DNA of 63,034 bases, counting the filler, from Elsinoe ampelina (taxonomy: Eukaryota): the NCBI GenBank assembly GCA_010093995.1. It is 3 parts of 3 records of this genome, joined end to end, with 100 filler letters (N's around TTAATTAATTAA, not from the genome) between each part and the next. Parts side by side here need not be neighbours in the genome. Positions count along the whole stretch, not along the records: positions 1 to 31,843 come from ML992551.1; 2 more parts are not named here. One strand, written 5' to 3'. This document shows, piece by piece, positions 1 through 36,225 of the stretch; the stretch's first letter is position 1, and each line of letters opens with the position of its first letter. The notes beneath the pieces are model-generated. The model searched no databases, was not told the origin of the DNA, and saw only the letters and a list, made by a program, of their open reading frames with translations. Position numbers and translations under genes: made by a program.

Positions 1-490
1 TAACCTCTAGTACTATCTTTCTAATATTAGCTTTTAAGTAGTTATAGTATAACTATTAGGGCAGGGTTAGGGCGGCCGAAGGCTAACCCTAGTACTAGTA
101 TAGAGCTATTCTTAGCGGGTCGGCACCTAGTGCTAAACTAAATAGTACTAGCTCTATACCCTACTATATTAGTACTAGTACTAGTACTACGCTAAGCTAT
201 ACTAGTACTAGCACCGTACCGTAGTTAAGTAAGAATAGCACCGTACTATAATAGCGCTATACTACACTACGATAGCACTACACTAAATTAGTACTAGAGT
301 TAAATTCTAGTATTATACTACGTTATAGTACTACGCCTTAGTTAGGCTTTAAGGCGACTATAGTTACTATACTATACTTTAGCATTGCAATAAGTCTATA
401 GAAAGGAAATTTAATAGTCTAGTCTATATAAAAATATACCTGTCTATTTCTTATAGTCTATTCTTATAGCATTATAGAGGAAAGGTCTTA

Positions 491-1072: not shown

Positions 1073-1449
1073 AGCTACGTAAATTTATTAAATTAATTAT
1101 TAAAATTTGTTTATAAAGATAGAGAAGAGTAAGGCAAAAATACTAAGAGCGAGATATTAAGCCTTATTAAGGAATTTATAATAGTATATAGAATATAAAT
1201 TTTGTATTATTATTCTCTACTATAACGACTTTACATTAACAATATTAATAACTTTATATTAGTATAATAATAGGATTAATACCTATTATTACTTATATTT
1301 CTAGCTACTCTATTTACTATATGTATAAGAAATACTAAATCCTTCTCTCCTTATCTTCTTCTTATAAAACTTATATCTTATATTTCGCTCCCTATTATAC
1401 TTAATATTCTACCTTCTCTTACAAATTACTACTAATTCTCGATCTATAA

Positions 1450-2750: not shown

Positions 2751-3099
2751 AGTTTTAGTAGCTTTCTAGTTCTACACTATTAAAATTTTTTTAATCTATA
2801 AATTAAAAGTAGCTAACGGATTTTTATAGAGCATTCTTATAGTCTTCTACTCCTTGTTATATAGCTAGTAATATTCTATATCTCTACTCTTAAAATGTTA
2901 GTATTTAATAAAGACTCGGTTAATTCTTAACTATAGATACTCTTAGAAGTTATTACGCTACTACTACCTCTCCCCTACAAGCTTAAAGAGTTCTATGTTA
3001 ATTACTAGAATAATCTATCCTCTACTCGATTCTATAAAACTATTAAAATTGTTAGCTATCCGCTCTACTAACTAGATATACTACTTAAAGAATAGCTAG

Positions 3100-5300: not shown

Positions 5301-8300
5301 AAAACATCTAATCGGCTAAGACGGACAATTTTACTACTGCTAATAATAATACTAATAGCGGATAGATAGCATAAGTAACAACTTTAGAGATATTACTACT
5401 TATAGTTTAAGCGATAAAGAGGTTAACAAGGAAGAAGAGTATAATAAGGACGAAGATCTACTATATAACATTACTAAGGTTAGAGGCTAGTATTCTAAGC
5501 GTATCTAGTTAATAGCTTCTAAGCAATAACGCTCTTATAGTATCTATACTAATACCTACCCTAAAGTACTTCCGCGCGTACCTTCCCTATTACTATATAT
5601 AATTCTACCTACTAATACTAATAGTCTCTCTTCGTTAGTTGCTCTAAGGAAGCTTATTCCCTTACTCGCTAGTATCTTTAATATAACTATATTTATATCT
5701 ACGTTAGTTGTACTAGATTCGCTTATAAAAACGTCAACGAGGAAATCGTATAGATCGACTATAATACAAAGGCTAAAGCTATAACTAATCTCCGCGCTAC
5801 TCCTCTTATTATTAACCTTAATAACTACCCCCGCTATAGTACCTACAACCTTAGCTAACTTATTACCGACACTACTCTCTACACTATTACTAATATTTAC
5901 CTTATTATACTCTCGACTTCCTTACTAGGTTTAAGCCTGATAATAGTTAGGTTACTTTCTAGAATAATACTAATAGTAAAGAGAACAACGAGGGAGATAC
6001 TTCTACCGCTAGTACCGATAGTACTACCTAGAGTAGTAATATAACTACTAGTATAGCTAGAGGTAATATAAATACTTCTACTTTAAGAGCTTATATACGC
6101 CGTTGTTATAGTTAATTTTAGTTACTTATAGGAAGAGGTAACATAATTAAGTCTTTATAAAGTATAAGTCTATATTATTAATAACTATCTAAAGCTATTA
6201 GCCTGCCGACGCTTTAACTACGCTACCTTAATTAGATTAGTTATCGGAAGAAATACTATTATTACTATCGTCGACGTAATTTAACTCCTTCTACTTATAT
6301 TTAACGTTATAGCGTATAGTAAAGAGTAAGAGTAGATCTACTCTTCTGTTAAGAATAAGACAATTAATAGTGCGCTATATGTTAATTAGGTTAAAGATAT
6401 TGTCGGTCTATAAGATATTATACTAATATTTGTTAGATTATAGAGAAAGATTAGATTAGAAATACCTATAAAGTTATAAGGGGTATTATAAGTACGGTAG
6501 GCTTTATAGCAAAGTACCGAACCTCTATAGTTATTATAGATACATTCGGCCTAGATTTCGTAGTTGTTATTAAAGTCGAGATATATAAGAGTTATATAGT
6601 AGATATAGGCTTTATACTAACGTAGGTATAAGGGCCTAGCGCGGTTGCTAGGAGTTATCTTATAAGGCTAAAAGGGGATTAGATCTACTAGGTCGGGGTA
6701 GAGTTAAGCGTAAGAAGGAGACATTATAGAAGAAGGTATTAAACGACAAGAAAGAGAGGTTTAAGAGAAAGAAGGAGGAATAGTAACTAAAAGGTATATA
6801 TATCTAGCGTTACCTATTATAAGAACGACAATATAGATAATAGCTATTATCTGTTATAAAAAAACAATAATACTAATAATAGCTATTATTAAACAATAGC
6901 TATTATTATACTAAGGGATATAAGTAGATTATTAGCTAAGTTACTTCTTTCTCTCCTTAGAAACATTTAAATAACTATCTAGTATACCTTTACGTCGCTA
7001 TAGTATAACTTATACTAACAGTTGCTAGAATTTAAGCAAATTTACTACTATATCTACTACTTGTCTCTCTATTATTCGTTAGGCTAATATTACTTATCGT
7101 AAATTTATTAACAACCTTTAGGCAGAGATTAAGGCCCTAGACGGCCTTATACTTACTATTAACTAGCAATCTAATAGTATTAAGGCAATTCGTAACTATA
7201 CTATAAGTTAGTAGAAAGGCTAAACTACCTAGAACTAATTATTCTAGTCTTAGACTCTACCTAATAGCTTTAGTACTCCGGTTTACTAGTTAAGAGTTAT
7301 AATTTATATAAGAGTAAACTTACTAAAGATAGAATATCCTCCGGATAAAGCAGATAATAAGATAATAAGGTATTAGTTCTAGGTAGTATACAGCTTACTA
7401 GCTAAGTACGTAAAATAGGCTCGTAGGAGTTATATAGATAATGTTAATTAGGTTAATCTTCTACAAATTACTATTAGGTCGTAATTATATATAAGGGTTA
7501 ATAATTAATAACTTTTGCTTCTCTCTAGTATTCTTTACCTACTGTAACTTTAAGCGTTTAGAGCGGAAAAGTAACAAGAGTTATAGGACATAGTAGTTGC
7601 TATAAGAATTTACTATAAGAATAGCGACTCTAGTACAGTACTAGTAAGGGTATACTAAGGACTTAATAGTACTATACTACTTATCTACCGACCTAACCTA
7701 GTACTATACTACGTCTAGAATATATACGACCTAACCTGTATCTAGTACTAGTACGGTGCTATTATAGCTACGGTATAGAGCTAGTACTAGTACTACTAAG
7801 CCCTTAGCGGCACTACGCTAGCTAGAGGCCGACCTAAACCCTAGTGTAGTACTAAACCTAAAGGGGCCGACCCTGCCCTAATAGTTATACTAAGTAGTTA
7901 TAATAGCTAGATTTGCTCTTATAGCCTATAGCTTTTATAGTTTTAGCCTTATAGGTAATTTCTTATAGTTCTAAGGCTTATAGACTTTAAAGTTCTTAAG
8001 CTATTTAACTCTTTTAAAGTATTTAATAAGGCTAACTTCCTTTCTATCCTTTATTAAGGATTTACTAACTATAGAGATACTAAGTTCCTCTTTATTCTAA
8101 AGGTTAGATATAAGAGTATTTAGTAATAATAGTAAGTATATATAATTATAAAGCTTAATAATTAACTTCTTACCTTTGCTATTAGTTAGAGTAAGCCTAA
8201 CTATACTAACTTCTATATTAAGTAGCTTCTTTATACTAATAGCTTATTTAAATTTAAGAACACCTTTATATACCTTAATTATTAAGAACTATAACCTATC

Positions 8301-9592
8301 TTTAATAAAGTACCTTAATATACTAAAGTTATAGATTACTCTATTCTTACTATAGGTTAAGAATAATAATATAGATACTACTACTACTCTATAGACTAGT
8401 ATAATAATATTAATATTAGTGTTAGAGCGTTTATCTAATTTACCTACCTTAGTAGGTTTTCTAGATTCTTTAATAGCTACTTAACCTTTAACTTTCTTAG
8501 TCTTTAACTTGTTACTTTTACCTTTAGCCTTTATACCTTTATTATTTAACCTATCTTTATTATCCCTTTTACTCTAACTCTTTAGTACTTTCTTAGGGTA
8601 CTACTTAAAGTAATCTATATTAGAGTAGATATAATAAGTATACTAAGTATATTAATCCTTAATATAACTAGCTACTCTATAAATAGAGTTTAGATTAGTT
8701 CTTCTATTATATAGGGGCTTCTATATTCTAAAAGAGTCTATTATCTCTTTAAAACTCTTCTTATAGTTAAGAGTAGATCTCTTACTCCTTAACTATTTAG
8801 TAGTCTCTATTTCTATAATAAATATAGTCTTAATATAGTATAGAGGGAGCCTAAACTTATCTAGTTTAGTACTAATAGTGCTTACTCTTTACTCTATAGT
8901 AATAGTATATTAATAATAGTACTTTATAAAATCTTTATAGTACCTTTAGGTGTTCTAACTTATTATAATTACCTTATTAAGGTTATAGATAGCTATATAT
9001 AGCTTATATAAAATAATAGGTTTAAATATAGCTTTAATAATATCTAGAAGTTCCTTTAAAGTCTTCTAAGTTATACTATAGTAAGGTCTAATAGATTTAT
9101 AAATCCTTATTATAATAATACTATAAGTAATTCTATTATTCTTATACTAGGTCTTATTCCTAACCTTATAGAGTACCTTAGTACCTTTACTAGTATCTAG
9201 GGCTAGTTCTTTAGGCTTTATAACTACTAGTATCTAGTTAATGTTATAAATTGTATATCTAAGTATATCCTTTTTAAAGAGAGCTACCTTAAGAGTTAAT
9301 CTCTAAGTATTATAGTTACTCCCTCTCTTAAGAATCTAAGTCTTAAGCATTTTTACTAATCTAGACATAATAATAGTAATTAGCTAAAGGCCTATTAATT
9401 TAATTAATGTAATTAGCTTATTTAAGCTGTTTAAGCTATTTAATTAAAGGGTTAATATAGGCTACTATAAGTGTTTATCTTAATGTAGCTAGTCTAGAAT
9501 TTAGTATAGGCGGCTTAGTAATCCTTTTAATAATAACACGCTTAATTTGCTATAGCTTTAAGTGCTTTTATAGAAGCGCTAGGCTTATAACC

Positions 9593-9734
9593 TATTATAA
9601 CTAGCAAATCGGATCGAGAGACATATATTTCATTTAGAGAGTTATAATAACTAATTTATCTACTATGCGTGCGCTGACTTATTAGTACTAGTTCTTTAGT
9701 ACTAGAGAAGCTATACTAGCCTTCTATTATAACA
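9593..9734 (-). repeat. Copia family A LTR (5' LTR of the minus-strand copy), 142 bp
   Basis: Reverse complement of 9766-9907, 16350-16491 and 35839-35980. Confidence 0.9.
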
Positions 9735-9765
9735 TCCTTTACCGGACTAGAATATTATACAAGGA

Positions 9766-12700
9766 TATTATAATAGAAGGCTAGTATAGCTTCTCTAGTA
9801 CTAAAGAACTAGCACTAATAAGTTAGCACACGTATAGTAGATAAATTAGTTATTATAACTCTCTAAATAAAATATATATCTCTCGATCCGATTTGCTAGT
9901 TATAATAGGTTATAAGCCCGGCGCTTCTACAAAAGTACTTAAAGCTATAGTAAATTAAGCGTGTTATTATTAAAAGAATTACTAAGCCGCCTATACTAAA
10001 TTCTAGACTAGCTACATTAAGATAAACACTTATAGTAGCCCGTATTAACCCTTTAATTAAATAGCTTAAACAGCTTAAATAAGCTAATTATATTAATTAA
10101 ATTAATAGGCCTTTAGCTAATTACTATTATTATGTCTAGATTAGCAAAAATGCTTAAGACTTAGATTCTTAAGAGAGGGAGTAACTATAATACTTAGAGA
10201 TTAACTCTTAAGGTAGCNNNNNNNNNNNNNNNNNNNNNNNNNNNNNNNNNNNNNNNNNNNNNNNNNNNNNNNNNNNNNNNNNNNNNNNNNNNNNNNNNNN
10301 NNNNNNNNNNNNNNNNNNNNNNNNNNNNNNNNNNNNNNNNNNNNNNNNNNNNNNNNNNNNNNNNNNNNNNNNNNNNNNNNNNNNNNNNNNNNNNNNNTAG
10401 AGCAAAGAGTAAGCACTATTAGTGCTAAACTAAATAAGTTTAGGCTCCCTCTATACTATATTAAAACTATGTTTATTATAGGAATAGAGACTACTAAATA
10501 GTTAAGGAGCTAGAGATCTAGCCTTAACTATAAGAAGAGTCTTAAAGAGATAATAGGCTCTCTTAGAATATAGAAGCCCCTATATAATAGAAGAACTAAT
10601 CTAAACCCTATTTATAGAGTTGCTAGTTATATTAAGGATTAATATACTTAGTATACTTATTATATCTACTCTAATATAGATTACTTTAAGTAGTACCCTA
10701 AGAAAGTACTAAAGAGTTAGAGCAAAAGGAATAATAAAGATAGGTTAAATAATAAAGGTATAAAAGCTAAAGGTAAAGGTAACAAGTTAAAGACTAAGAA
10801 AGTTAAAGGTTAAGTAGCTATTAAAGAATCTAGAGAACCTACTAAAGTAAGTAAATTAGATAAACGCTCTAACACTAATATTAATATTATTATACTAGTC
10901 TATAGGGCAGTAGTAGTATCTATATTATTATCCTTAACCTATAGTAAGAATAGAGTAATCTATAACTCTAATATATTAAGGCACTTTATTAAAGATAGGT
11001 TATAGTTCTTAACAATTAAGGTATATAAAGGTATTCTTAAATTTAAATAAGCTATTAGTATAAAGAAGCTACTTAATATAGAAGTTAGTATAGTTAGGCT
11101 TACTCTAACTAATAGTAAAGGTAAGAAGTTAATTATTAAGCTTTATAATTATATATACTTACTATTATTACTAAATACTCTTATATCTAATCTTTAGAAT
11201 AAAGAGAAACTTAGTATCTCTATAGTTAGCAAATCCTTAATAAAGGATAGAAAGGAAGTTAGCCTTATTAAACACTTTAAAAGAGTTAAATAGCTTAAGA
11301 ACTTTAAAGTATATAAGCCTTAGGACTATAAGGAATTACCTATAAGGCTAAAACTATAGAAGTTATAGGCTATAAGAGTAAATCTAGCTATTATAACTAC
11401 TTAAAAGCTAACATTAGAAAGATAGCACTAGAGGTTAAACTATACTAGTAACACTATTCTCTCCCTTACTAAAAGTTAAGCTATTAGATTAGAAGAACTT
11501 TAAATATTAGATCTTAGCTACTATAAACTATATACTATATTAAAGGTATAGAAAGTAGTATTAAGAGAACTAAGAGATATACTAAAGTACTTACTAGATA
11601 AGCTTTATCTAGACCTTATTAGTCCTATTAAACTATAGTTAAGTAAGAGCTATAAATACCTTCTCTTTGTAATATATAGTAAAAGTAAGTACAAGTTTAT
11701 TACTATTCTCTTTCTTAAGAGTAATATATTAGTAGCAATTAAACTTATCTATATAAGGAACAAAATGGCCTATAATAAGCTTTTATTCGTCTTTATCTCT
11801 AATAGAGGAAGTAAATTTAAGAACTATAAACTAGTAATAGCTATTTATCTTAAAGGGTAGAGATAGAATATCTCTATACCTAATACTTAATACTAAAATA
11901 GTAAATCTAAGGCTACTAATAAAGTAGTTATTCTTAGAACAAGGTATATCTTTGTTAATTATAGAGCACCCCTTAAACTCTAGTATATAGTTATAGAGTT
12001 TATAATTTATATTAGTAATAGAATTACCTATACTAAAACTAAGAAGATCCCTATATAAGAGCTAAAAAAGAATCTTCTTAATAATAATAGGCTAGTCTTA
12101 TTAACTTATATTAGACGCTTTAGCTATAGAGCCTATATCTATAACTAATATATTTCTAAATTATACAAATTCTAAGCTAGAGTACTACTTAGTTAGTATA
12201 TTAGTATATAGAACAACTTAACAACTAATTACCTTATCTAGATACTCTATTAGTATTATACTTAGTAAGCCTAGAAGAGAAAAATTATTATATTACCCTA
12301 TATAACATTTAATAAGAATATAGTCTATAAAGACTAAGTAATATAAGTTATTAAATAGCTATATATCCTATAGGTATAATAACCTAAGGCTTTATAGCTT
12401 TAAGAGGAGCAGACATTTAGTAGTAATTATAATTAAGACTATAGCTATAATTAACTACCCTTTAGTTATAAGAATCTATAAACTACTTAGGCTAAACAAC
12501 CTTAAGCTAAATAACTAATATCTAACTACCCTTTAATCCCTAGATATAAATAATAATTATCTACCCTAGTTAAAGAATAGAAGGAGTAACACTAATATTC
12601 TAAACTAGATCCTTAACCTATTAATAAATAAGGGAAGCAACTTAATATTACTAATTATAAAGGTAAAGACTTTATAACACTACTACCTAAAGTTATTAGT

Positions 12701-15700
12701 GAACTATATTTAACCTTTAATCCTATAGTTAATATTAATTAACTACTAATATATATATAGAATAAGAATGTTAACTTCCTTATTATACTATTTAATATAT
12801 AACCTCTAACTAGTAAAAGGAAGAGATCTCTCTTACTATAAGAAACTATTAGAAGGTCCCTTAGAATATATTACTAGATTAATTATAAAAAACTTAATAA
12901 TACTAAGATTATTAGATCTATAGCTATTAATTTTAAGCTAGACCTATAAATAGTAAGAGATATACTATCCTCTCCTAAAGGTTATTACTAGTAAGCTATA
13001 ATAGAGGTAGAGTAGAAGGCTCTAACTAACTCTAAAACTCTTTTAATTATTAAGAAATTATAGGCACTAAGAGGTGTTAGGCTAATAATAGGCAAATAGG
13101 TCTTTAAGACTAAGAGGCTTACTAATAGTAAAGTTAAAAGATATAAGGCTTATTAGACTATAAGAGGCTTTACTTAAAGAGTAGATATTAACTTTATTAG
13201 AACCTTTATACTAACACTAAGAGCTAAAACTAGAAGAGTAATTCTTATATATACTCTTTATTATAACTAGGTCATTATAATAGTAGATATAGTTACTATA
13301 TTCCTTAGACTAGATATTAATATTAAGAACTATATCTCCTACCTAGAAGGCATACCAATTCCTAGTAAACAGAACAAGCTTATTGTTCTTATAAAGGGCT
13401 TATATAGGCTTAAGTAAGCTACTACCCTCTAGTATAACGCTATAGTTAAGGCACTTCTATTACTTAGTTTTATTAGATCCTATAGTAATACCTATCTCTT
13501 TATTAATAAGTATTATATAGTTCTTATATATATTAATAACTTTAGGATTATTACTACTAAGTAGAAGTATATAGATAAGCTAGTTAAAGATCTTTATCTT
13601 AAGTTTCTAATAAAGATTATAAACTTAAANNNNNNNNNNNNNNNNNNNNNNNNNNNNNNNNNNNNNNNNNNNNNNNNNNNNNNNNNNNNNNNNNNNNNNN
13701 NNNNNNNNNNNNNNNNNNNNNNNNNNNNNNNNNNNNNNNNNNNNNNNNNNNNNNNNNNNNNNNNNNNNNNNNNNNNNNNNNNNNNNNNNNNNNNNNNNNN
13801 NNNNNNNNNNNNNNNNNNNNNNNNNNNNNNNNNNNNNNNNNNNNNNNNNNNNNNNNNNNNNNNNNNNNNNNNNNNNNNNNNNNNNNNNNNNNNNNNNNNN
13901 NNNNNNNNNNNNNNNNNNNNNNNNNNNNNNNNNNNNNNNNNNNNNNNNNNNNNNNNNNNNNNNNNNNNNNNNNNNNNNNNNNNNNNNNNNNNNNNNNNNN
14001 NNNNNNNNNNNNNNNNNNNNNNNNNNNNNNNNNNNNNNNNNNNNNNNNNNNNNNNNNNNNNNNNNNNNNNNNNNNNNNNNNNNNNNNNNNNNNNNNNNNN
14101 NNNNNNNNNNNNNNNNNNNNNNNNNNNNNNNNNNNNNNNNNNNNNNNNNNNNNNNNNNNNNNNNNNNNNNNNNNNNNNNNNNNNNNNNNNNNNNNNNNNN
14201 NNNNNNNNNNNNNNNNNNNNNNNNNNNNNNNNNNNNNNNNNNNNNNNNNNNNNNNNNNNNNNNNNNNNNNNNNNNNNNNNNNNNNNNNNNNNNNNNNNNN
14301 NNNNNNNNNNNNNNNNNNNNNNNNNNNNNNNNNNNNNNNNNNNNNNNNNNNNNNNNNNNNNNNNNNNNNNNNNNNNNNNNNNNNNNNNNNNNNNNNNNNN
14401 NNNNNNNNNNNNNNNNNNNNNNNNNNNNNNNNNNNNNNNNNNNNNNNNNNNNNNNNNNNNNNNNNNNNNNNNNNNNNNNNNNNNNNNNNNNNNNNNNNNN
14501 NNNNNNNNNNNNNNNNNNNNNNNNNNNNNNNNNNNNNNNNNNNNTATATCTATACTATATACTTATTTAGATTTTATATATATTATTATTTTAAGTATAT
14601 TATTTATGCTACTACTACTTATTAAGCTATCTTATTTGTCTAAAAACTTAAAGTAAGTTACTCTAACATTAAAAAGAGAGAAAGAAAAAGCTATTATAAC
14701 CTTATTACTAGCTACTTATATCTAAGCTATATCTACTACTTAATACTAACTACTATCCTATACTACTAACTACTTATTACACTCTACTAATTACTTCCTT
14801 AGAGGAGTCCTTATTCTCTTAAAGCTCTTAAAGCTAGCACGAGATCTACTACCTATTAATATATTAGAGTTAGCCCTTAACCTTTCGTTTCTTAGGGAAG
14901 ATCTAGATATATTCCTTATATAACCTATACTACTAGCTAAACCTTATATAGTAAAGGTGTAAATAGTTAGAAGACTACACCTCTTACTAGATATAACCTT
15001 AGCTATACTTATAGCAAACCTAGCTATAATAACCTATAGGGCCTAGAGCTTAGCCTATATAGAATTTACTAGATTAGCAAAGTCTATAGGGACTATAATA
15101 AAGTAGCGTAAGTTAGGATATACTAAGGACTTATTAATAACATTAGTAGGCCTACTACGAGAAGAAGTAGGCCTTAGTAAGAACCTTTAAGGTAAAGCAC
15201 TACTAAAAGAGAAAGACCTTAGAAGCTTAGTTAGTAGGTATATTAGGCTATATAGAATAGGTTAGGTAATAGGCCTTAAACTACTTAGAGTTTCCTTTAG
15301 AGGCCTTAGAGTTAGAGTATACTAGATAAGAGAGTAAGTCTTATACTATAGACTATAGGTATAGTTAGTATAGGCACTATAGAACTAGCTAGAGACTATA
15401 ATATACTACTTAAACTTACTAGCCCTACTAAGGCTACTATTATTACCTAGAGTAGAGCCCTAACACTTAGTATAGCAGTTAGTACTATAGTAAACAACCC
15501 TTCTAGTAGCACTAGTTCCTATTAAGGTAGCTATATAAGTTAGAGAACTAGTTAAGTTAATTGTCTTAGTTAGGTTCTTTACCTAGATAGTAGCTATAAC
15601 TAAAAGATCTAGGTTACTAGCACTAAAAGCCTAAATAGTAGAGGACTTAAAGACTAAGTATAGCAAGTTATAGTTATAGTATCTAAGGTCCCTAAGGCTA

Positions 15701-16491
15701 GTAAGGTCGTTCTAGATACTTATAGTAAGCTCTTAAGTAAGAGCCTATTTAGTCCTAACTATAACGAGTTAGTACTACTTTTTAGACTATATAAGGGACA
15801 ATATACTAAGAGTATTTAGTCTAGTAATAGCCCTTATAGTACTTTACTCTCTTATCTTAGAACTAGTTAAATCTCTAGACTAAGGAAGATTACGTCCTTT
15901 ACCTCTACTACCTAGCGGACTACCTAGTGCTCTAGTACTAGTAGTAATACTACTAATACCTAGCTAAGTAGTAGCACTTATACTATAAGGAGTTAGTTTA
16001 TGCTATAGAAGGTGTAAAAGTAGAATGTAAAATAGTAGGCTATTGTTATAAGTGTAATAAAGGAAAGAGAAACTATAAAGAAGTTAGCTAGATACTTATA
16101 TCTCCCTTGTTAAGATTTATAAGCTAATCTATTTACATAGAACAATAGAGACAATAGCTGCCTAGCTATTGTTAATAGTTACTATTATTGCTAGCTGTTA
16201 TAAGCTAATCTAATAGTAAATTCTTACTAGTAATTAGCTAGCACTAACAATTATAAGTAATTATAAAGAGATAAAGTAATAAGCTAATTACTTTACTTAT
16301 ATGTAATAGGACAGTTCTCTAGCTTTAATAATCTATACTAGAGGGGGAGTGTTATAATAGAAGGCTAGTATAGCTTCTCTAGTACTAAAGAACTAGCACT
16401 AATAAGTCAGCGCATGCACAGTAGATAAATCGGTTATTGTAACTCTCTGAATGAAATACACGTCTCTCGATCCGATTTGCCAGTTACAACA
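9766..16491 (+). mobile_element. Full-length RIP-degenerate Ty1/Copia retrotransposon, family A (contains two N gaps)
   Basis: 142-bp LTRs at 9766-9907 and 16350-16491; 5-bp TSD AAGGA (9761-9765, 16492-16496); PBS GGTTATAAGCCC at 9908-9919; PPT AGAGGGGGAG at 16340-16349. Integrase (YLDLISPI, ISNRGSKF) precedes RT (GK*VFKTK, LYRLK*A, LIYINN = YVDD), the Copia order. Confidence 0.95.
14700..15985 (-). pseudogene. Antisense extra ORF in the Copia A 3' region, Cys-rich (DUF3716-like), RIP-degenerate; boundaries approximate
   Basis: Minus frame ~15480-15325 reads NCYTKC*G..RASKFK*YIIVSS*FYSAYTNYTYSL*YKTYSL; frame-preserving homology with 33760-35000. Confidence 0.6.
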
Positions 16492-19727: not shown

Positions 19728-20124
19728 GGACGTCTTTGCCCGCCTTCAATCATAACACTATGGGCAAAACGCCTTCGGATTACCATGATTGTCTTCTCCA
19801 GATGAGTTGCCTTTTCATTCTACAAAGTTGATGGCTTCCGTATGATGGACAAACCCCATCCAGACCAGCTCACATTCCTCACCCCTTCCCACAAGGCGAC
19901 GCATTCCTCATTCCCCACCACGCTCCGCGTCGCAACAACAATCCAAGACCAGACCACAAAATGATCACTATGGAATCCGCTGCCGTTCTCTCCGTCTTTC
20001 ACAAATCTCCAGCTTCGCCGTCACTCATTCTGGTTCCATCGAACATCCACTCGCTAGCTTTTCTTCCTTCTCTTCCTTTAGTCTCTCCTTTTCACCTCAC
20101 CTGGTGTCTGCTGCTCTCAGCATC

Positions 20125-23069
20125 ATGTTCCCTTTCCAGTATGCGGTCTTCGCCGCTTTGCTTGGCCTCGCCTGGGCCCAGTCGACAGTGAATACCATAA
20201 CCCAGACTTTCGTCGGGAGTAATGGGGTTACCACAGTGCCCTGGCAAGATCTCCCCGGTCTCAGGGTGCCGAAAAAGTAGAGCTGACGAGGTTTGGCAGG
20301 CCTCCTTCATGTACGGCTCTGGATACCAGGACTTCGGCTGTATACGATTCCAACGCTCAAGAATTGTATTATTTCATGTGCGGTGAGTTGCAGAAGGCCC
20401 GAGAACGAAACAAGATTTTAAATCGACCAAGAATTGGCTTGCTGACGTGGAATTTAGGTGCCGCCACCAACAATCCTGGTCTTGCCACCTTCGGAGCCAA
20501 TACTACCTGGCGAGACTGCTTCGCTCGGTGTGATAACACCGCGGGATGTACCAGCTTCTCCTTTAACAATGCAGCGAATGGTATCAACTTCGGAGAGACC
20601 AGCGGGGATTGTGTCCTGAAAGCTGCTGCGCCTCCCGCCTTCTCGCAGACCGATACCCTCCAGTCCACTCGTATCGGTGTAATCCGATACAGGTTCGGTG
20701 AGAAACGATCCCCAGCAAAAAGCTTCTTGATCGACTAACAGGAGTAGTCAATACCGCTACCATCGGAACCACGACCTCGGCCACAACGACGACGAGTTCG
20801 TCTTCATCGAGCTCCACCTTCCCGACGACGACAACAAGTATCACGACGACCACTACCACCGGACTGACGGCCACCGTGACGGCCACGACGCTTTCGACAG
20901 TCTATGGTACCACCACGGCCACCTCGGTAAGAGTAAGCTCAGAATGAAACGCACAGGCAAGGCTAACTATGATGCAGACGGTCGTATCCACCGCAAGTGT
21001 GACACAGGTAAGTCTTCCAACCGCAAAGGCTATCCATGACTGACGTCGGGATTTAGACCCAGAGCGTGACCCAGAGCGTGACGCAGGTAAGCCAGCGAAG
21101 TTGCAAGCCCTCCCACCATTTGCTAACCTCACCAGACGCAAAGCGTGACAGGCACTCAGGTTCGCAGCAGATACATATCCTCAGTATATGACTCAAGCTG
21201 ATCGACTCCAGACCTTGACGACAACAAGCTTGGGTACTGCAACCCAGACTCAAAGCTTGACGGCTAGCATTACCACAGTGAGCGTCGAGAGCAGGATACT
21301 TGGGATGAAGCTAATGAACTTAGACCCAAAGTGTGACTGGTCCAACTCAAGTCGGTAGCAAGTTCCCAGGATCATGTCACCAGAAGCTGACTTCAGCCCC
21401 AGACACTGACGACGAGCGTCGGCACGGCCAGCGTCACCACAACTCAGAGCCTCACAGCTGTAGGAACCTCGAGCACGCCGATTGATATCCGGCTAACAAC
21501 CTTAGACACTGAGCGTGACTGGGCCGACTCAGGTTCGAAACTTGTGGGGACTTGAGCTGGCTTGACTAACGAGGATATCAGACCTTGACAACAACTAGCC
21601 TAGGCACCGCCACCACAACAGCGATTACAACCGCCACTGCTAGCGTTACGACTGTAGGCTAATTCATCGTCTGCGTAAACCGAGGCTAACAGAGATAGAC
21701 TCAAAGCGGTCCTACACAGGTTCGAGGGCAACTCAAACCCATGTCTCGATTCAAGCTGACTTCAGAAGACTCTCACTACGACTAGTCTAGGTACTGCTGT
21801 GAGTAAATTGGCATCCTTGGATGAGCAAAGCTGATCAATGTTTCCAGACTCAAACCCAGGTAAGACTTGCAGGTGCGATGTGCTACGACTCCTGCTGATA
21901 GCGTAGACTACAAGCGTGACAGGCCCGACCCAGGTATGCCGAGCTTTCTTGATGGCCGACAATGCCATACTGATGATGCTAGACACTCACGACGACCAAC
22001 ACAGCCACTCTCAGCTTGACCGGAACAGCCACAGCTGTGAGTCTAGAGATGAAGTGCTAATTGAGGCTATCACTGACTCCCGAAAGACCCAGACTGGCAC
22101 AGTCACCGGAACTCTCACCACAGTGTCGGACCGAGTAGTCACCCAGGTCGTCACAGCGGTATGATGTCTTTTCTGATACGTGTAAATCCACCGCTGACAT
22201 CTCCAGACGGCCACAGAGACGGTGAGGAGGACCAGAGTCGTCAAACGAATGGTGAGAGAGCCTTTGCTGATACAGCCCCCTCTAGTCGACGATCGATGAG
22301 ACGAGCACTTCGTCTCGATCCTCGTAATATCACTCCATCCATTCAGAGCGAGAAGCTGACTGACGCCATCAAGGTCACCCAGCTCTAGTAGTTCCAGCAC
22401 GACTCGAACTACGACGACGACGACGACGTAAGTGTTGATTTCAGGTTTAGGGAGAATTCCGCTAACAGGCCCCCAAGAACGACTTCCTCAAGCTCTTCCA
22501 GTACTTCGTCTCCAACCACGACCTCGACCAGCTCCTCCTCGTCTTCAAGCTCGCTCTCGACCTCGTCCTCGTCCAGCTCTTCCTCGTCTAGCTCGTCCTC
22601 GTCTAGCTCGTCCTCGTCTAGCTCGTCCTCGTCTAGCTCGTCCTCGTCTAGCTCGTCCTCGTCTAGCTTGTCCTCGTCTAGCTCGTCCTCATCTAGCTCA
22701 TCATCGTCCAGCTCTTCCTCATCTAGCTCGTCTTCCACCTCGTCCTCGGTCTCCGCTTCAACTTCGTCCTCCAGCTCCAGCTTATCCTCCAGCTCGTCAT
22801 CCTCCTCCAGCTCGTCGTCCTCTTCCAGCTCGACTGCTTCCTCTACCGCCTCGCTAACGACCTCTTCCGCTCTCACCCCATCGAGCTCGTCAAGCTCCAG
22901 CTCCAGCCCCAGCTCCACCCTTGCCTCCACCAGCTCCACCAGCTCGAGCAGCTCCTCCTCCTCTACCAGCAGCAGATCTTCCTCGACGGCTTCGACAACC
23001 ACCGATGGGCCCTCATGCCCGAACCCGGTGACCGTCTACGCCACAATCACCCCGACAATCACAGTCTAA
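20125..23069 (+). CDS. Secreted PAN/Apple-domain mucin-like protein with micro-exon-encoded Thr-rich stalk and Ser-rich tail (~22 exons)
   Basis: Signal peptide MFPFQYAVFAALLGLAWA; PAN/Apple Cys pattern YFMC..WRDCFARCDNTAGCTSFSF..GDCVLK. The manual splice model (first intron GC-AG) stays open to ...TDGPSCPNPVTVYATITPTITV* at 23069. Confidence 0.85.
22500..22990 (+). repeat. Ser-coding low-complexity tract with a 15-bp tandem unit (TCGTCCTCGTCTAGC)n
   Basis: About 6-7 near-perfect 15-bp units around 22590-22700, inside the last exon of the PAN-domain gene. Confidence 0.85.
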
Positions 23070-30994: not shown

Positions 30995-31198
30995 AATTGC
31001 TACCGGAGGTGGCAATCGAGGTAGGTATGCATGAGTGTATGTGAATAGCGAGAGATGAATCGCTATAACATTCTTTCAAAGAAGTCTAAGCCAGCTCCAA
31101 GGATTACTGAGCGGATAGAAGGTCCCGGATATCTGAAAGAGAAAAGGATGAAGGTGGAATGCGCTTGAGAAGCAAAGTGAGGATAACTTTGTATGGGG

Positions 31199-31843
31199 TG
31201 TTGTAACTAGCAAATCGGATCGAGAGACGTGTGTTTCATTCAGAGAGTTATAATAACCGATTTATCTACTGTGCGTGCGCTGACTTATTAGTACCAGTTC
31301 TTTAGTACTAGAGAAGCTATACCAGCCTTCTATTACAACACTCCCCCTCTGGTATAGATTACTAAAGCTAGAGAACTGTCCTGTTATATGTAAGTAAAGT
31401 AATTAGCTTATTACTTTATCTCTTTATAATTGCTTATAATTGTTAGTGTTAGCTAATCATTAGTGAGAATTTACTATTAGTTTAGCTTATGATTGCTAGC
31501 AATAATAGTAACTATTAATAATAGCTAGGCAGCTATTGTTTATGTAAATAGACTAGCTTATAAGTCTTAATTAAAGAGATATAAGTATCTAACTAGCCTC
31601 TTTATAATTTCTCTTTCCTTTATTACACTTATAGTAGTAGCCTTTTCTTTTATATAATACTTTTACCTTCTTACTATGCTATATTAATAACACTTATAAT
31701 ATAAGCGCTATAGTATAGCAATAGCTAGGCATTAGTAGTATTACTGCTAGTGCTAGTGCTCTAAGTAGTCTACTAGGTAGCGGAGGTAGTAGTAAGAAGA
31801 GAAATCCTCTATTAAGGTTGCCTAGTACTTCTAATGTTAATTA
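31199..31843 (-). mobile_element. Copia family A 3' end (3' LTR 31199-31340, PPT, part of the 3' region), cut by a scaffold join
   Basis: 142-bp LTR TGTTG...CAACA with little RIP damage; CTCCCCCTCT (PPT reverse complement) at 31341-31350. Confidence 0.9.
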
Positions 31844-31943
31844 NNNNNNNNNNNNNNNNNNNNNNNNNNNNNNNNNNNNNNNNNNNNTTAATTAATTAAN
31901 NNNNNNNNNNNNNNNNNNNNNNNNNNNNNNNNNNNNNNNNNNN
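31844..31943. other. Artificial scaffold-joining linker
   Basis: 44 N + TTAATTAATTAA (stops in all six frames) + 44 N; identical structure at 56182-56281. Confidence 0.9.
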
Positions 31944-34900
31944 CTTTAAGTAGTACTCTAAGAAAGTACTAAAGAGTTAGAGCAAAAGGAATAACAAAGA
32001 TAGGTTAAATAACAAAGACATAAAGGCTAAAGGCAAAGGTAACAAGTTAAAGACTAAGAAAGTTAGAGGTTAAGTAGCTATTAAAGAATCTAGAGAACCT
32101 ACTAAGGTAGGTAAATTAGATAAACGCTCTAACACTAATATTGATATTATTACACTAGTCTATAGAGTAGTAGTAGTATCTATATTATTATTCTTAACCT
32201 ATAGCAAGAATAGAGTAATCTATAACTCTAGTACGTTAAGGCACTTTATTAAAGACAAGTTATAGTTCTTAACAATTAAGGTACATAAAGGTGTTTTTAA
32301 ATTTAAATAAGCTATTAGCACAAAGAAGCTACTTAATGCAGAAGTTAGTATAGTTAGGCTTACTCTAACTAATAGCAAAGGTAAGAAGTTAATTATTAAG
32401 CTTTATAATTNNNNNNNNNNNNNNNNNNNNNNNNNNNNNNNNNNNNNNNNNNNNNNNNNNNNNNNNNNNNNNNNNNNNNNNNNNNNNNNNNNNNNNNNNN
32501 NNNNNNNNNNNNNNNNNNNNNNNNNNNNNNNNNNNNNNNNNNNNNNNNNNNNNNNNNNNNNNNNNNNNNNNNNNNNNNNNNNNNNNNNNNNNNNNNNNNN
32601 NNNNNNNNNNNNNNNNNNNNNNNNNNNNNNNNNNNNNNNNNNNNNNNNNNNNNNNNNNNNNNNNNNNNNNNNNNNNNNNNNNNNNNNNNNNNNNNNNNNN
32701 NNNNNNNNNNNNNNNNNNNNNNNNNNNNNNNNNNNNNNNNNNNNNNNNNNNNNNNNNNNNNNNNNNNNNNNNNNNNNNNNNNNNNNNNNNNNNNNNNNNN
32801 NNNNNNNNNNNNNNNNNNNNNNNNNNNNNNNNNNNNNNNNNNNNNNNNNNNNNNNNNNNNNNNNNNNNNNNNNNNNNNNNNNNNNNNNNNNNNNNNNNNN
32901 NNNNNNNNNNNNNNNNNNNNNNNNNNNNNNNNNNNNNNNNNNNNNNNNNNNNNNNNNNNNNNNNNNNNNNNNNNNNNNNNNNNNNNNNNNNNNNNNNNNN
33001 NNNNNNNNNNNNNNNNNNNNNNNNNNNNNNNNNNNNNNNNNNNNNNNNNNNNNNNNNNNNNNNNNNNNNNNNNNNNNNNNNNNNNNNNNNNNNNNNNNNN
33101 NNNNNNNNNNAGACTATTAGCTAACATAATTAAAGCCTACTCTAACTTAGACTTTGCTAGAGATAGATTAACTACAAGATCTATATCTAGTACTATTATT
33201 TATATGCTTAGTGCACTAGTTATTTAGAAGTTAAGGCTATAGAAGATTATTATGTTGTTAAGTACTAAGGCTAAATACCTTACCCTTACTAAGACCTATA
33301 GAGAGATTAATTAGTTAAGAAACCTTATTATTAAACTTAGGCTACTTACTAATATCTACCTTAGTCTAACTATAGTTTTTGTTAATAACAAATTAGCTAT
33401 TAAACTTATAAGAGATTATACTAACTTAAGAAGATCTAAGTATATTAATCTAAGGAATTACTACTATAGAGAGTAGCATAAACTTAGAGTAATTAAGCTT
33501 AAGTATATTAATACAACTTAGTAATTAGCTAATACACTTATAAAGCCTAAGTCTCCTAATAAGATTCTTAATTAATTAGCAAAGGCTAATTACTTAGTAT
33601 ATATCTACACTATACACTTATTTAGATTTTATATATATTATTATTTTAAGTATGTTATTTATGCTACTACTACTTATTAAGCTATCTTATTTATCTAAAG
33701 CTTAAAGTAAATTGTTTTATTATTAAGAAGAGAGAAAGGAAAAGCTATTATAACTCTATTACTAGCTACTTATACCTAAGCTATATCTACTACTTAGTAC
33801 TATTATTACCTTTAACAACTCTTACCTATCCTCTACCTTAAATTACTTCTTTATAGAAGGAGAACTCCTTCCCTTATTACTACTAGTAGACCTTATAGAA
33901 GTGTTAGATCTAGACCTACTATGCCTTATTAGTGCTAGGCTTAGTGTAAAGGCATAAATAGAAGAAAGCTAACTAGGATAGCTAGTAGCTATAATCCTTA
34001 TAAGCTCTACTATATAGTTTATTACTATAGTAGCTAAGTTATAAACCTTAGTAGTAGTTAGGTTAGTAGGATCTACAAAGTTTATAGAGACTACTATAAA
34101 GTAGTAAGAGTTAGTATAAGTTATTAAGGTGTTAACTACACCTAATAATGCCTCTAGTATATAGGCCCTTAGTAAGAACCTCTAAGGCAAAGCACTACTA
34201 AAAGAGATAGACCTTAGGAGCTCTATTAGTAGGTGTATTAGGCTATATAGAATAGGCTAGGTAATAACTCTTAAGCTACTTAGGGTCCTTATAGGTTTAG
34301 AAGAGCTAACAGGCCTTAGAGTTAGAGTATAGTTAGCTAAGAAACATCTAGCATATTAGTTGCTATAAGTATAGCAAGTGTAGGCCTTATTAAGCTAACT
34401 AGGTAAAGTAATACACTTACTAAACTTACTACCCCTGCCCTTACTCTAATTATTGCTAGGGTTAGATCCCTAACACTTAGTACAGTAATTAGTGCTATAG
34501 TAAACTACTCTACTAGTAGTACTAGAAGCTATTAAAGTAGTAGAGTAGTTAGCAAATCTAGTAAGGTTAACTTACTTAGTTAGATCCTTAACTAGAATAG
34601 GATTAGTAACTACTAGGTGTACACTATAGGTACTAAAGGCCTAGACTACTATAGACCTCTAGATAGGATATAAGTTAGCATAGTTATAATAACTAATTAT
34701 CCTAAGCCTAAGAAGAGTATTCTAGATTATGTCGGCTAACTATTAAGTTAAAGTCTAGGTTAATTAGGCTATTAATATTAGCTTATACTATTAATACTTT
34801 ATAGCTACTTACTAAGAGTATTAAGACGAGTAATTAGTCTTATAGTAGTATTATAATTAACATTAGAAGTACTAGGCAACCTTAATAGAGAATTTCTCTT

Positions 34901-35980
34901 CTTACTACTACCTCCACTACCTAGTAGACTACTTAGAGTACTAGCACTAGTAGCAATGCTACTAATGCCTAGCTATTGCTATACTATAGCGCTTATATTA
35001 TAAGTGTTATTAATGTAGCATAGTAAGAAGGTAAAAGTGTTATATAAAAGAAAAGGCTACTACTATAAGTATAATAAAGAAAGGAGAAATTATAAAGAGG
35101 CTAGCTAGATACTTATATCTCTTTAATTAAGACTTATAAGCTAGTCTATTTACATAAACAATAGCTGCCTAGCTATTGTTAATAGTTACTATTGTTGCTA
35201 GTAATTATAAGCCAAACTAATAGTAAATTCTCACTAATGATTAGCTAACACTAACAATTATAAGTAATTACAAAGAGATAAAGTAATAAGCTAATCACTT
35301 TACTTACATATAATAGGATAGTTCTCTAGCTTTAACAATCTATACTAGAGAGGGAGTGTTATAATAGAAGGCTAGTATAGCTTCTCTAGTACTAAAGAAC
35401 TAGCACTAATAAGTCAGCGCACGCACAGTAGNNNNNNNNNNTACTAATGCCTAGCTATTACTATACTATAGCGCTTATGTTATAAGTGTTATTAATGTAG
35501 TATAGTAAGAAGGTAAAAGTATTATATAAAAGAAAAAGCTACTACTATAAGTGTAATAAAGGAAAGAGAAATTATAAAGAGGCTAGTTAGATACTTATAT
35601 CTCTTTAATTAAGACTTATAAGCTAGTCTATTTATATAAACAATAGCTGCCTAGCTATTGTTAATAGTTACTATTGTTACTAGCAATTATAAGCTAAACT
35701 AATAGTAAATTCTCACTAATAATTAGCTAACACTAATAATTACAAGTAATTACAAAGAGATAAAGTAATAAGCTAATTACTTTACTTACATGTAACAGGA
35801 CAGTTCTCTAGCTTTAGCAATCTATACCAGAGGGGGAGTGTTGTAATGGAAGGCTGGTATAGCTTCTCTGGTACTAAAGAACTGGTACTGATGAGTCAGC
35901 GCACGCACAGTAGATAAATCGGTTATTGTAACTCTCTGAATGAAACACACGTCTCTCGATCCGATTTGCTAGTTACAACA
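31944..35980 (+). mobile_element. Copia family A element(s), gapped: gag/protease region, RNase H region, 3' region and 3' LTR
   Basis: 31944-32410 matches 10684-11150. RNase H-like relic (LSTKAKYL, FVNNKLAI, KYINLR, LANTLIK) at ~33250-33545. Partial LTR 35357-35431; full LTR 35839-35980 with PPT 35829-35838. Confidence 0.9.
33760..34996 (-). pseudogene. Second, diverged copy of the antisense Cys-rich ORF of Copia A (boundaries approximate)
   Basis: Minus frame ~34490-34340 reads YCTKC*GSNP..GRGSKFSKCITLPS*LNKAYTCYTYSN*YARCFL. Confidence 0.6.
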
Positions 35981-36225
35981 TAACTCACTTCCCAAGCAGA
36001 TCTCTACTGTACTTCTCGATCATATCGACTATCAATTGCATCTGACCAATGGTCATACGATTTCCTGATTCATTTGTCAATATGAAGATGTAGTTCTCAA
36101 TCCTTTCAATCATTTCTGGGTCTTGCTGGCCAGCCAAAGAAGGTGTCGTCGGGAGGCAGGTATGTTTGGCGGGATCTGAGTAATAATCTACGACTGGTCA
36201 GTACCTCGAACTCGGCCTCGGACAT

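What the first reader, a model, noticed from the sequence alone, without database searches (positions are those of the whole stretch)
20927..22285. Micro-exon array: 15 consecutive symmetric phase-0 exons build the stalk of a secreted PAN/Apple protein
Predicted exons: 20978-21007 (30 nt), 21057-21086 (30), 21136-21159 (24), 21212-21277 (66), 21324-21350 (27), 21403-21459 (57), 21506-21532 (27), 21582-21653 (72), 21699-21719 (21), 21769-21798 (30), 21848-21859 (12), 21907-21933 (27), 21983-22036 (54), 22087-22158 (72), 22207-22221 (15). Every exon is a multiple of 3 and starts with a Thr codon. The introns between them are 45-52 nt GT..AG with a CTRAY branch site. Two modules alternate (TQSVTGPTQ-like and TLTTTSLGTA-like); exons resemble each other while introns do not, indicating old exon duplication with selection on the exons. 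Any exon subset can be skipped in frame, as in Schistosoma micro-exon genes. Inference: splice-generated length or glycosylation variation in a fungal adhesin-like surface protein. ORF finders miss this completely.
Basis: partly seen in the sequence, partly recalled or inferred. Interest (0 to 1): 0.85.

Follow-up and report, generated by a model that had tools for sequence, protein, structure and literature searches.

The report
Fungal mucin gene built from mini-exons
A grapevine-anthracnose fungus has a real, transcribed gene whose threonine-rich stalk is stitched together from 15 tiny in-frame exons separated by minimal introns, an architecture common in animals, rare in moulds, and truncated in the public annotation.

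Summary
All 15 predicted exons (12-72 nt) are multiples of 3, start with a Thr codon and are flanked by AG/GT. Spliced RNA contigs from two studies join them at the predicted borders.

The gene (window 20125-23069, + strand) has 22 exons and 21 introns in 2,945 nt. It encodes a 622-aa protein: signal peptide, PAN/Apple domain, Thr-rich stalk, Ser-rich tail. The organism is Elsinoe ampelina. Its public model (316 aa) fails inside the array, and the E. fawcettii orthologue's model also derails.

The array is most likely the product of serial tandem duplication of a ~180-190-nt cassette: short exon, intron, long exon, intron. Exon copies are kept identical in protein despite 6-8 synonymous differences per 10 codons. 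Intron interiors are randomised, but class-specific splice signals survive.

Only the all-inclusive transcript is seen, though contigs cannot exclude rare isoforms. It resembles schistosome micro-exon and SmPoMuc genes but fails their defining features. My literature searches found no description of such an array in fungi.

The parts
20125..23069 (+). Whole gene: 22 exons, 21 introns, CDS 1,869 nt, 622 aa plus stop
   Evidence: Model assembled from the junctions; reading frame closes with a single terminal stop
20125..20243 (+). Exon 1: start codon and signal peptide (hydrophobic N-terminus, A-W-A then Q)
   Evidence: signal peptide by inspection and hydropathy, AF2 helix 3-17
20244..20299 (+). 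Intron 1, 56 nt, GC..AG ends
   Evidence: Pieces 20000-20242 / 20299-20381 in X1 record 1 and X3 record 6; a one-base shift over a shared G gives GC..AG; the public protein has the same junction
20300..20382 (+). Exon 2 (83 nt), N-terminal half of the conserved module
20458..20697 (+). Exon 3 (240 nt): PAN/Apple domain
   Evidence: Pfam PAN_4 and PAN_1 above gathering cut-offs; pLDDT 84-96; PAN/Apple structural neighbours
20748..20926 (+). Exon 4 (179 nt): Thr/Ser-rich linker, ends in phase 0
20927..22285 (+). The array: 16 phase-0 introns (45-64 nt) bounding 15 symmetric exons, 188 codons
20978..21007 (+). Array exon m1, 30 nt, short-type
   Evidence: X1 and X2
21057..21086 (+). Array exon m2, 30 nt, short-type (doubled TQSV unit)
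   Evidence: X1 and X2
21136..21159 (+). Array exon m3, 24 nt, short-type; starts cassette 1 (188 nt)
21212..21277 (+). Array exon m4, 66 nt, long-type (TLTTTSLGTA head)
21324..21350 (+). Array exon m5, 27 nt, short-type (TQSVTGPTQ); starts cassette 2 (182 nt)
21403..21459 (+). Array exon m6, 57 nt, long-type; the public model misses its donor
21506..21532 (+). Array exon m7, 27 nt, short-type; starts cassette 3 (193 nt)
21582..21653 (+). Array exon m8, 72 nt, long-type
21699..21719 (+). Array exon m9, 21 nt, short-type; starts cassette 4 (208 nt)
21769..21798 (+). Array exon m10, 30 nt, long-type head only
21848..21859 (+). Array exon m11, 12 nt (TQTQ)
   Evidence: its letters lie between the sides of joint 21798->21905 (table 5c)
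21907..21933 (+). Array exon m12, 27 nt, short-type; starts cassette 5 (180 nt)
21983..22036 (+). Array exon m13, 54 nt, long-type
22087..22158 (+). Array exon m14, 72 nt; reads like a short and a long module fused
   Evidence: the fusion is my inference
22207..22221 (+). Array exon m15, 15 nt
   Evidence: its letters lie between the sides of joint 22158->22285 (table 5c)
22286..22323 (+). Exon 20, 38 nt, not symmetric (phase 0 to 2): end of the regular array
22374..22427 (+). Exon 21, 54 nt
22478..23069 (+). Exon 22, 592 nt: Ser-rich tail with a 15-nt tandem repeat, short Cys-containing end, stop

Best explanation
This is one constitutively spliced 22-exon gene of Elsinoe ampelina. It encodes a 622-aa secreted glycoprotein made of a signal peptide, a ~130-residue PAN/Apple-containing module, a 188-residue Thr-rich stalk and a ~200-residue Ser-rich tail.

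The stalk is encoded by 15 consecutive phase-0 exons because it grew by serial tandem duplication of a genomic cassette of ~180-190 nt. The cassette is a short exon (TQSVTGPTQ type), a 49-52-nt intron, a long exon (TLTTTSLGTA head) and a 45-47-nt intron. Only a cassette that is a whole number of codons after splicing can be duplicated without breaking the frame. On this reading the symmetry is a precondition of the growth mechanism, not an adaptation for exon skipping.

After duplication, selection kept the peptide and the splice signals while the intron interiors drifted to randomness. The introns are at the minimal fungal length, and each is recognised on its own (intron definition). That is why exons as short as 12 nt are spliced correctly.

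Shown: the exon borders, transcription, the domain and the selection pattern. Inferred: secretion, heavy O-glycosylation of the stalk as an extended spacer, the duplication history, and that splicing is essentially constitutive.
For: - Junctions: RNA contigs of two studies skip the introns at the predicted borders and keep every exon. The spliced frame is open for 622 codons.
- Retention: any of the 16 array introns, if retained, gives a stop or a frameshift (16 of 16). All must therefore be removed.
- Cassette period: starts are 188, 182, 193, 208 and 180 nt apart.
- Selection: the TLTTTSLGTA head is identical in 3 copies with 6-8 of 10 codons synonymously different and 0 nonsynonymous. The 9-aa short exon has 4-7 synonymous against 1 nonsynonymous codon differences.
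- Intron interiors are at shuffle level: 0.467 against 0.454.
- Introns of one class share odd features: pyrimidine at donor +3 in 4 of 5 short-to-long introns against 0 of 11 others (Fisher p=0.0027). Repeat families run 6 nt into the intron 5' ends and ~14 nt into the 3' ends (D8, D1, D6). Lengths are 52,52,49,49,49 against 46,46,45.
- Domain: Pfam PAN_4 and PAN_1 pass their gathering cut-offs. The module has pLDDT 84-96 and the stalk below 50. Neighbours are fungal copper-oxidase N-domains, the SML-2 lectin, factor XI apple and the HGF N domain.
- Intron definition in ascomycetes, and a 42-nt minimum intron in A. nidulans: PMC6616335, passages.
Against: - No genomic DNA of any relative could be obtained. 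The order of duplications and the age of the introns rest on this one sequence.
- The E. fawcettii orthologue has a shorter stalk with a different long module. Part of the expansion may therefore be lineage-specific, or homogenised, and I cannot tell which.
- Contigs cannot show minor isoforms, so 'constitutive' is only the absence of alternatives in four runs. None of those runs is on record as RNA; that they are RNA is inferred from the spliced joints.
- Tandem duplication is reported to explain under 1% of single intron gains in Zymoseptoria tritici (PMC4457414, passage), so the mechanism is rare in fungi.
- Secretion and glycosylation were not tested by any program.
Confidence: 0.75

Rival explanations
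1. One reading: the phase-0 array serves combinatorial in-frame exon skipping, so one gene yields a ladder of stalk lengths and glycosylation states, as in schistosome micro-exon genes.
For: - All 15 exons are symmetric, so any subset could be skipped in frame.
- Skipping one exon would create composite introns of 108-170 nt, within the normal fungal range.
- Skipping of a 15-nt exon has been documented in Aspergillus niger (PMC6616335, passages).
- Four of five short-to-long introns have weak donors with a pyrimidine at +3.
Against: - Every contig laid, from two studies, carries the complete exon set and no skipping joint is listed.
- Ascomycete splicing pairs the nearest sites across short introns (PMC6616335), which disfavours skipping.
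- Strong purifying selection on each module's peptide fits modules that are all used.
- Symmetry is already explained by the duplication mechanism.
Confidence: 0.12
2. The peptide repeats arose first as intron-less tandem repeats. Introns were gained later, in parallel, at the recurring AG|AC proto-splice site of each unit, for instance from introner-like elements that have since decayed.
For: - Introner-like elements and parallel intron gains are documented in Dothideomycetes and decay quickly into ordinary introns (PMC4457414, abstract and passages).
- Intron interiors here show no similarity.
- A relative's gene call (P0002, from contigs of 61 and 178 kb) is continuous across the positions of introns 1 and 2. 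This hints at intron turnover in this gene.
Against: - Introns fall into two classes that follow the exon classes in length, donor type and branch/acceptor sequence. Co-duplication predicts this; independent insertions do not.
- All introns are 45-64 nt, whereas introner-like elements are described as long (PMC4457414).
- Sixteen independent gains, all in phase 0 within 1.36 kb, would be extraordinary.
Confidence: 0.08
3. Not a real gene structure: chance GT/AG pairs in a low-complexity region, or an assembly artefact.
For: - The region is low-complexity and Thr-rich.
- No listed run is on record as RNA.
Against: - Contigs of two studies skip 17 of 19 introns in their span at GT..AG borders with 0 mismatches, and the remaining two fit by length. 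DNA would not do this.
- The chain is unique in the window, and shuffles reach at most 3.
Confidence: 0.01

Closest known systems
Schistosoma mansoni micro-exon genes (MEGs)
   Same: Secreted proteins; conventional first exon with a signal peptide; runs of short symmetric exons, so that any can be removed in frame (PMC4015677, passages; abstract of bioRxiv 10.1101/2023.06.21.545858 in the listing).
   Different: - MEG micro-exons make up to 75% of the coding sequence. Here exons of 36 nt or less make 13% and the whole array 30%.
- MEG introns are long (up to 5 kb). Here they are 45-64 nt.
- MEG transcripts show up to seven exon-skipping variants. None is seen here.
- No sequence relationship, and a different kingdom.
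Schistosoma polymorphic mucins (SmPoMuc)
   Same: A mucin-like secreted protein whose 9-aa repeat is encoded by a 27-bp exon repeated in tandem together with its introns (PMC2576457, passages). Three exons here are exactly 27 nt and 9 aa.
   Different: - SmPoMuc genomic repeats are ~1 kb with introns over 93-94% identical (concerted evolution), in a recombining multigene family.
- Here the cassettes are ~185 nt, hold two exon types, and have intron interiors at random identity.
- I saw a single gene, and no other protein with these modules in the length range searched.
Vertebrate fibrillar collagen genes (54-bp exon arrays); recalled, not checked here
   Same: A long series of short phase-0 exons, each beginning with the same codon type (Gly there, Thr here). 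The standard explanation is duplication of an ancestral exon-intron unit, with constitutive splicing.
   Different: Animal genes with exon definition and long introns; a triple-helix repeat rather than a glycosylated stalk. This comparison rests on my memory only.
Fungal PAN/Apple-domain secreted proteins, e.g. the N-terminal domain of Colletotrichum graminicola copper oxidases (PDB 6RYX, 6RYW, 6RYV, 6STX)
   Same: PAN fold at the N-terminus of a secreted fungal protein; these are the top structural neighbours. Pfam PAN_4 and PAN_1 are met.
   Different: No catalytic domain follows here, only Thr- and Ser-rich low-complexity sequence. The fold-search E-values are weak (2.5e-3 at best) because half the model is unstructured.
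Ser/Thr-rich stalks of fungal adhesins and mucins (Als, Flo, Msb2 types); recalled
   Same: A signal peptide, an N-terminal binding domain, then a long Ser/Thr-rich region expected to be O-mannosylated and extended.
   Different: As far as I recall, those stalks are encoded by intron-less tandem DNA repeats. No GPI-type C-terminal signal is evident here (by inspection). No sequence relationship was tested.

Membership tests
PAN/Apple domain (Pfam PF14295 PAN_4, PF00024 PAN_1) | Score above Pfam's gathering cut-off | tested here: met
   PAN_4 29.9 bits (cut-off 27) and PAN_1 27.6 bits (cut-off 21.4) on exon 3 alone
PAN/Apple domain (Pfam PF14295 PAN_4, PF00024 PAN_1) | Conserved cysteine framework | tested here: met
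   C44, C67, C88, C92 and C98 invariant and C119 nearly invariant in 29 homologues
PAN/Apple domain (Pfam PF14295 PAN_4, PF00024 PAN_1) | PAN fold (helix packed on a beta-sheet) resembling solved apple domains | tested here: met
   pLDDT 84-96 over residues ~20-150. Neighbours include SML-2 lectin, factor XI A4, HGF N domain and TgMIC4 apple, with target TM 0.41-0.64. However, 0 matches reach E 0.001 or better
Schistosome-type micro-exon gene (MEG) | Micro-exons form most of the coding sequence (up to 75%) | tested here: not met
   10 exons of 36 nt or less = 243 of 1,869 nt (13%); whole array 564 nt (30%); criterion from PMC4015677
Schistosome-type micro-exon gene (MEG) | Symmetric exons (multiples of 3) | tested here: met
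   15 of 15
Schistosome-type micro-exon gene (MEG) | Signal peptide encoded at the 5' end | tested here: inconclusive
   Hydrophobic N-terminus with an A-x-A site, by inspection and hydropathy only; no signal-peptide predictor was available
Schistosome-type micro-exon gene (MEG) | Exon-skipping isoforms | tested here: inconclusive
   Only the all-inclusive form is seen in contigs of four runs; contigs cannot show rare forms
Schistosome-type micro-exon gene (MEG) | Long introns between micro-exons | tested here: not met
   Introns are 45-64 nt against up to 5 kb (abstract in the listing)
SmPoMuc-type repeated-exon mucin | Tandem genomic repeats of exon plus intron kept near-identical (over 93%) | tested here: not met
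   Intron interiors 0.467 identity against 0.454 shuffled; criterion from PMC2576457
SmPoMuc-type repeated-exon mucin | 9-aa repeat from a 27-bp exon | tested here: met
   m5, m7 and m12 are 27 nt and 9 aa (3 of 15 exons); the other short-type exons are 12-30 nt
Introner-like elements | Introns similar in sequence to one another, and longer than regular introns | tested here: not met
   No interior similarity; lengths 45-64 nt; criterion from PMC4457414. Fully decayed elements cannot be excluded
GPI-anchored fungal adhesin | C-terminal hydrophobic GPI signal | tested here: inconclusive
   The last 20 residues have mean hydropathy 0.5 and no hydrophobic tail by inspection; no GPI predictor was run

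The most novel reading that the evidence does not exclude
The array is a fungal counterpart of the schistosome MEG and SmPoMuc systems. In a plant pathogen, stochastic or infection-induced in-frame exon skipping, or unequal crossing-over between cassettes among strains, would vary the length and O-glycan load of a secreted PAN-domain mucin. A whole class of such secreted repeat proteins would then be hidden in fungal genomes because gene predictors break on them.
Probability: 0.12. Interest if true: 0.8.

Novelty: new variant of a known kind. Interest (0 to 1): 0.55.

Why it matters
- It is an RNA-verified case, in a filamentous ascomycete, of a coding repeat that grew by duplicating exon-intron cassettes. 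That route of intron gain is reported as very rare in fungi (under 1% of single gains in Zymoseptoria; PMC4457414).
- Intron-definition splicing handles exons down to 12 nt in series here.
- Two public annotations of this gene family are wrong. Secretome and effector catalogues of this crop pathogen, and probably of its relatives, therefore miss or truncate such proteins.
- The simple chain scan could be run genome-wide to find more.
- Microexons are described as 'barely studied in fungi' (PMC12230235, passage).

Tried and rejected
- Whole genome: none is held for this window, so no genome-wide scan for similar arrays or paralogues was possible.
- RNA runs: no RNA holder is listed as such. The four runs are labelled 'RNA? 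(a guess)'. I treat them as RNA only because their contigs are spliced.
- Isoform ladder: contigs cannot address it.
Two metagenome scans found 0 confirmed relatives among 343 and 242 pattern matches. The prokaryote, phage and plasmid collections were not tried, being irrelevant to a fungus.
- Protein searches: the PAN exon against longer proteins gave 2 hits. P0003 residues 1-335 gave only the two Elsinoe proteins among 8,000 scored candidates. The stalk part of P0001 gave only itself among 2,816 candidates, for lengths 173-553 only. The exhaustive search gave 50 hits, of which one (P0003) extends into the stalk.
- Tandem Repeats Finder sees no array across 20927-22285 apart from a 12-nt unit of 2.6 copies. 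The cassettes are too diverged for it.
- Stalk structure: AF2 gives pLDDT below 50, so nothing can be said beyond 'no confident fold'.
- Earlier notes of this scan: nothing at this place or for the full word set. The 8 findings shown of 21 for 'micro-exon fungal' mostly concern organellar group I/II intron mini-exons, and none a nuclear exon array.
- Literature: searches found no paper describing a symmetric mini-exon array in a fungal secreted protein. This covers open-access full text and bioRxiv only.
- Extended exon m15: I considered an alternative donor at 22252. The RNA uses 22221/22286.
Full report
WHAT IS THERE

The window is fungal nuclear DNA. Blocks of 52-59% GC carry the genes and alternate with AT-rich stretches of 18-31% GC.
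- Fifteen short segments of 30, 30, 24, 66, 27, 57, 27, 72, 21, 30, 12, 27, 54, 72 and 15 nt.
- 15 of 15 are divisible by three, preceded by AG, followed by GT, and begin with a Thr codon (ACN).
- The 14 introns between them are 45-52 nt. The two flanking introns are 51 and 64 nt.
- All 16 carry a CTRAY branch motif near the 3' end (sequences).

No single frame is open across the region, and a bacterial-style ORF list shows nothing there.

IS IT MORE THAN CHANCE

- Thr makes 80 of the 188 residues, so 15 of 15 Thr starts has p of about 3e-6.
- I scanned both strands of the whole window for chains of 40-80-nt GT...CTRAY...AG candidates separated by open exons of 9-90 nt divisible by three.
- The scan found one chain of 16 introns (20933-22285, + strand) and no other chain of three or more.
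- Thirty shuffles of the GC-normal blocks reached at most three.

RNA EVIDENCE

No whole genome is held. Four public runs hold parts of the stretch. None is on record as RNA, but their contigs are spliced, which identifies them as RNA-derived.
- Contig X1 record 2 (1,189 nt, 0 mismatches) runs from 20477 to 22610.
- Of the 19 introns in that span, 17 are shown as joints. Thirteen are simple GT..AG joints. Two are composite joints whose 'letters between' are the 12-nt exon (21848-21859) and the 15-nt exon (22207-22221).
- The remaining two introns (21654-21698, 21720-21768) are not among the 15 rows printed ('2 more are not shown').
- The contig holds exactly 144 nt between the flanking pieces, equal to 21+30+12+27+54. 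The same arithmetic fits the other gaps (258 and 107 nt).
- X2 record 4, from a second study and carrying one T>C difference at 20841, shows intron 3 and the first eight array introns.
- X1 record 1 and X3 record 6 give introns 1 and 2.

THE GENE

Joining the exons by these junctions gives a 1,869-nt CDS in 22 exons over 2,945 nt, encoding 622 aa.
- Exons 1-4 and 20-22 are in mixed phases. Only the 15 array exons are phase 0 to phase 0.
- Intron 1 has GC..AG ends.
- Retention of any of the 16 array introns would give an in-frame stop or a frameshift (16 of 16).

The protein consists of:
- A hydrophobic N-terminus with an A-W-A/Q site (by inspection).
- A conserved module with a PAN/Apple domain. 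Pfam PAN_4 scores 29.9 bits against a cut-off of 27, and PAN_1 scores 27.6 against 21.4. The cysteine framework is invariant in 29 homologues. AF2 pLDDT is 84-96. Structural neighbours are Colletotrichum copper-oxidase N-domains, the Sarcocystis lectin SML-2, factor XI apple, the HGF N domain and TgMIC4 apple, though none reaches E 0.001.
- A Thr/Ser linker.
- The 188-residue Thr-rich array, for which AF2 gives no confident structure (pLDDT below 50).
- A tail that is mostly Ser, with a 15-nt tandem repeat.

From residue 148 onward, 69% of residues are Ser or Thr. I see no GPI-type hydrophobic end.

ORGANISM AND ANNOTATION

The window's own protein is in the databases as a 316-aa hypothetical 'Apple domain-containing' protein of Elsinoe ampelina.
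- That model is right through array exon m6, except for a donor placed 6 nt downstream at the first array intron.
- It then misses the donor at 21460, reads into the intron and stops.

The E. fawcettii orthologue (503 aa, 61% identity) has a similar but shorter stalk: TQSVTGTVTG alternating with TATVVSTATATA-type modules, about three times. Its model then runs into a wrong frame.

The N-terminal module occurs across Dothideomycetes: Aureobasidium, Lecanosticta and Dothideomycetidae sp. 11243. Three unspliced gene calls from relatives stop right after the residues that precede intron 3. This suggests that intron 3 is conserved. One of them is continuous across the positions of introns 1 and 2, which is an inference about intron turnover, not a demonstration.

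HOW THE ARRAY AROSE

Direct-repeat families recur at 182-193 nt. The starts of five successive cassettes are 188, 182, 193, 208 and 180 nt apart. Each cassette is a short exon, a 49-52-nt intron, a long exon and a 45-47-nt intron.

Identity between copies:

| Feature | Observed | Shuffled |
|---|---|---|
| Short exons | 0.68 | 0.50 |
| Long-exon heads | 0.66 | 0.53 |
| Intron interiors | 0.467 | 0.454 |

- The 10-residue head TLTTTSLGTA is identical in three copies while 6-8 of its 10 codons differ synonymously.
- The 9-residue short exons differ by 4-7 synonymous and 1 nonsynonymous codon.
- So the peptide is under purifying selection and the duplications are old.

The introns are not wholly unrelated, however.
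- Four of five short-to-long introns have a pyrimidine at donor position +3 (GTTCGN or GTCGGT), against 0 of 11 others (Fisher p=0.0027).
- The repeat families extend into the intron ends (D1, D6, D8).
- The two intron classes differ in length.

Introns duplicated together with their exons would give this pattern; sixteen independent insertions would not. Some remodelling followed. m14 reads like a fused short-plus-long pair. m10 plus m11 correspond to what is one exon in m4. The first three exons are all of the short type.

HOW IT WORKS

[quoted passage not shown] The minimum intron in A. nidulans is 42 nt (PMC6616335, passages). Under that regime exon length hardly matters, which explains correct serial splicing of 12-30-nt exons. 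The phase-0 symmetry is what allows a cassette to be duplicated without breaking the frame, so it needs no selective explanation in terms of skipping.

I infer that the product is a secreted PAN-domain protein, possibly carbohydrate-binding, held on a long O-glycosylated spacer. Its biological role is unknown.

THE ISOFORM HYPOTHESIS

Skipping is mechanically conceivable.
- Composite introns would be 108-170 nt.
- Skipping of a 15-nt exon is documented in A. niger.
- Several donors are weak.

But nothing in four runs shows it, and contigs cannot reveal minor forms. I put it at about 12%.

COMPARISON WITH KNOWN SYSTEMS

- It is not a member of any of these. The micro-exons make 13-30% of the CDS rather than up to 75%. 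The introns are minimal rather than long. The intron copies are randomised rather than over 93% identical. No isoforms are shown.
- Single microexons are known in fungi and called 'barely studied' (PMC12230235, passages).
- My searches found no description of a symmetric exon array in a fungal secreted protein. They cover only open-access full text and bioRxiv.

VERDICT

The gene model and the duplication-with-selection inference are supported. The splice-variation and adhesin readings are unsupported. It is a new variant of a known kind, of moderate interest, with practical weight for the annotation of fungal secretomes.

Noticed in passing
window 20244-20299: Intron 1 of the gene has GC..AG ends (GCAAGA...CAG, 56 nt). 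It is supported by spliced contigs of two studies and by the public protein's junction.
   Followed up: partly
window 22222-22285: The 64-nt intron after the 15-nt exon, read in frame, starts VRRTRVVKRM. The E. fawcettii public model reads through the equivalent place as VARRRLKRM. A conserved basic stretch with a dibasic KR inside an intron might mark an intron-retention isoform that ends the protein before the Ser-rich tail, or it may just be conserved splicing sequence.
   Followed up: no
window 20927-20977: Two in-frame donors lie 6 nt apart (20927 GTAAGA, 20933 GTAAGC). The RNA contigs use the first; the public annotation uses the second, adding two residues.
   Followed up: yes
window 1-16000 and 31000-36000: AT-rich stretches (GC 0.18-0.31) abut gene blocks of GC 0.52-0.59, the isochore pattern usually ascribed to repeat-induced point mutation. 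The gene lies about 4 kb from one boundary.
   Followed up: no
window 22515-22970: The last exon holds several nested tandem repeats, for example a 15-nt unit in 11.4 copies at 22562-22732. They encode almost pure poly-Ser, and RNA contigs break there.
   Followed up: partly
P0002 (unnamed relative, contigs of 61 and 178 kb): This relative's unspliced gene call is continuous across the positions of E. ampelina introns 1 and 2 and stops just after the intron 3 position. This suggests that introns 1-2 are absent there and intron 3 is shared.
   Followed up: partly
window 22087-22158 and 21769-21859: Exon m14 reads like a short and a long module fused (possible intron loss). m10 plus m11 match what is a single exon in m4 (possible intron gain or loss inside a module).
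   Followed up: partly
window 20841: A T>C difference in the contig of run X2 (second study), probably a strain difference.
   Followed up: no
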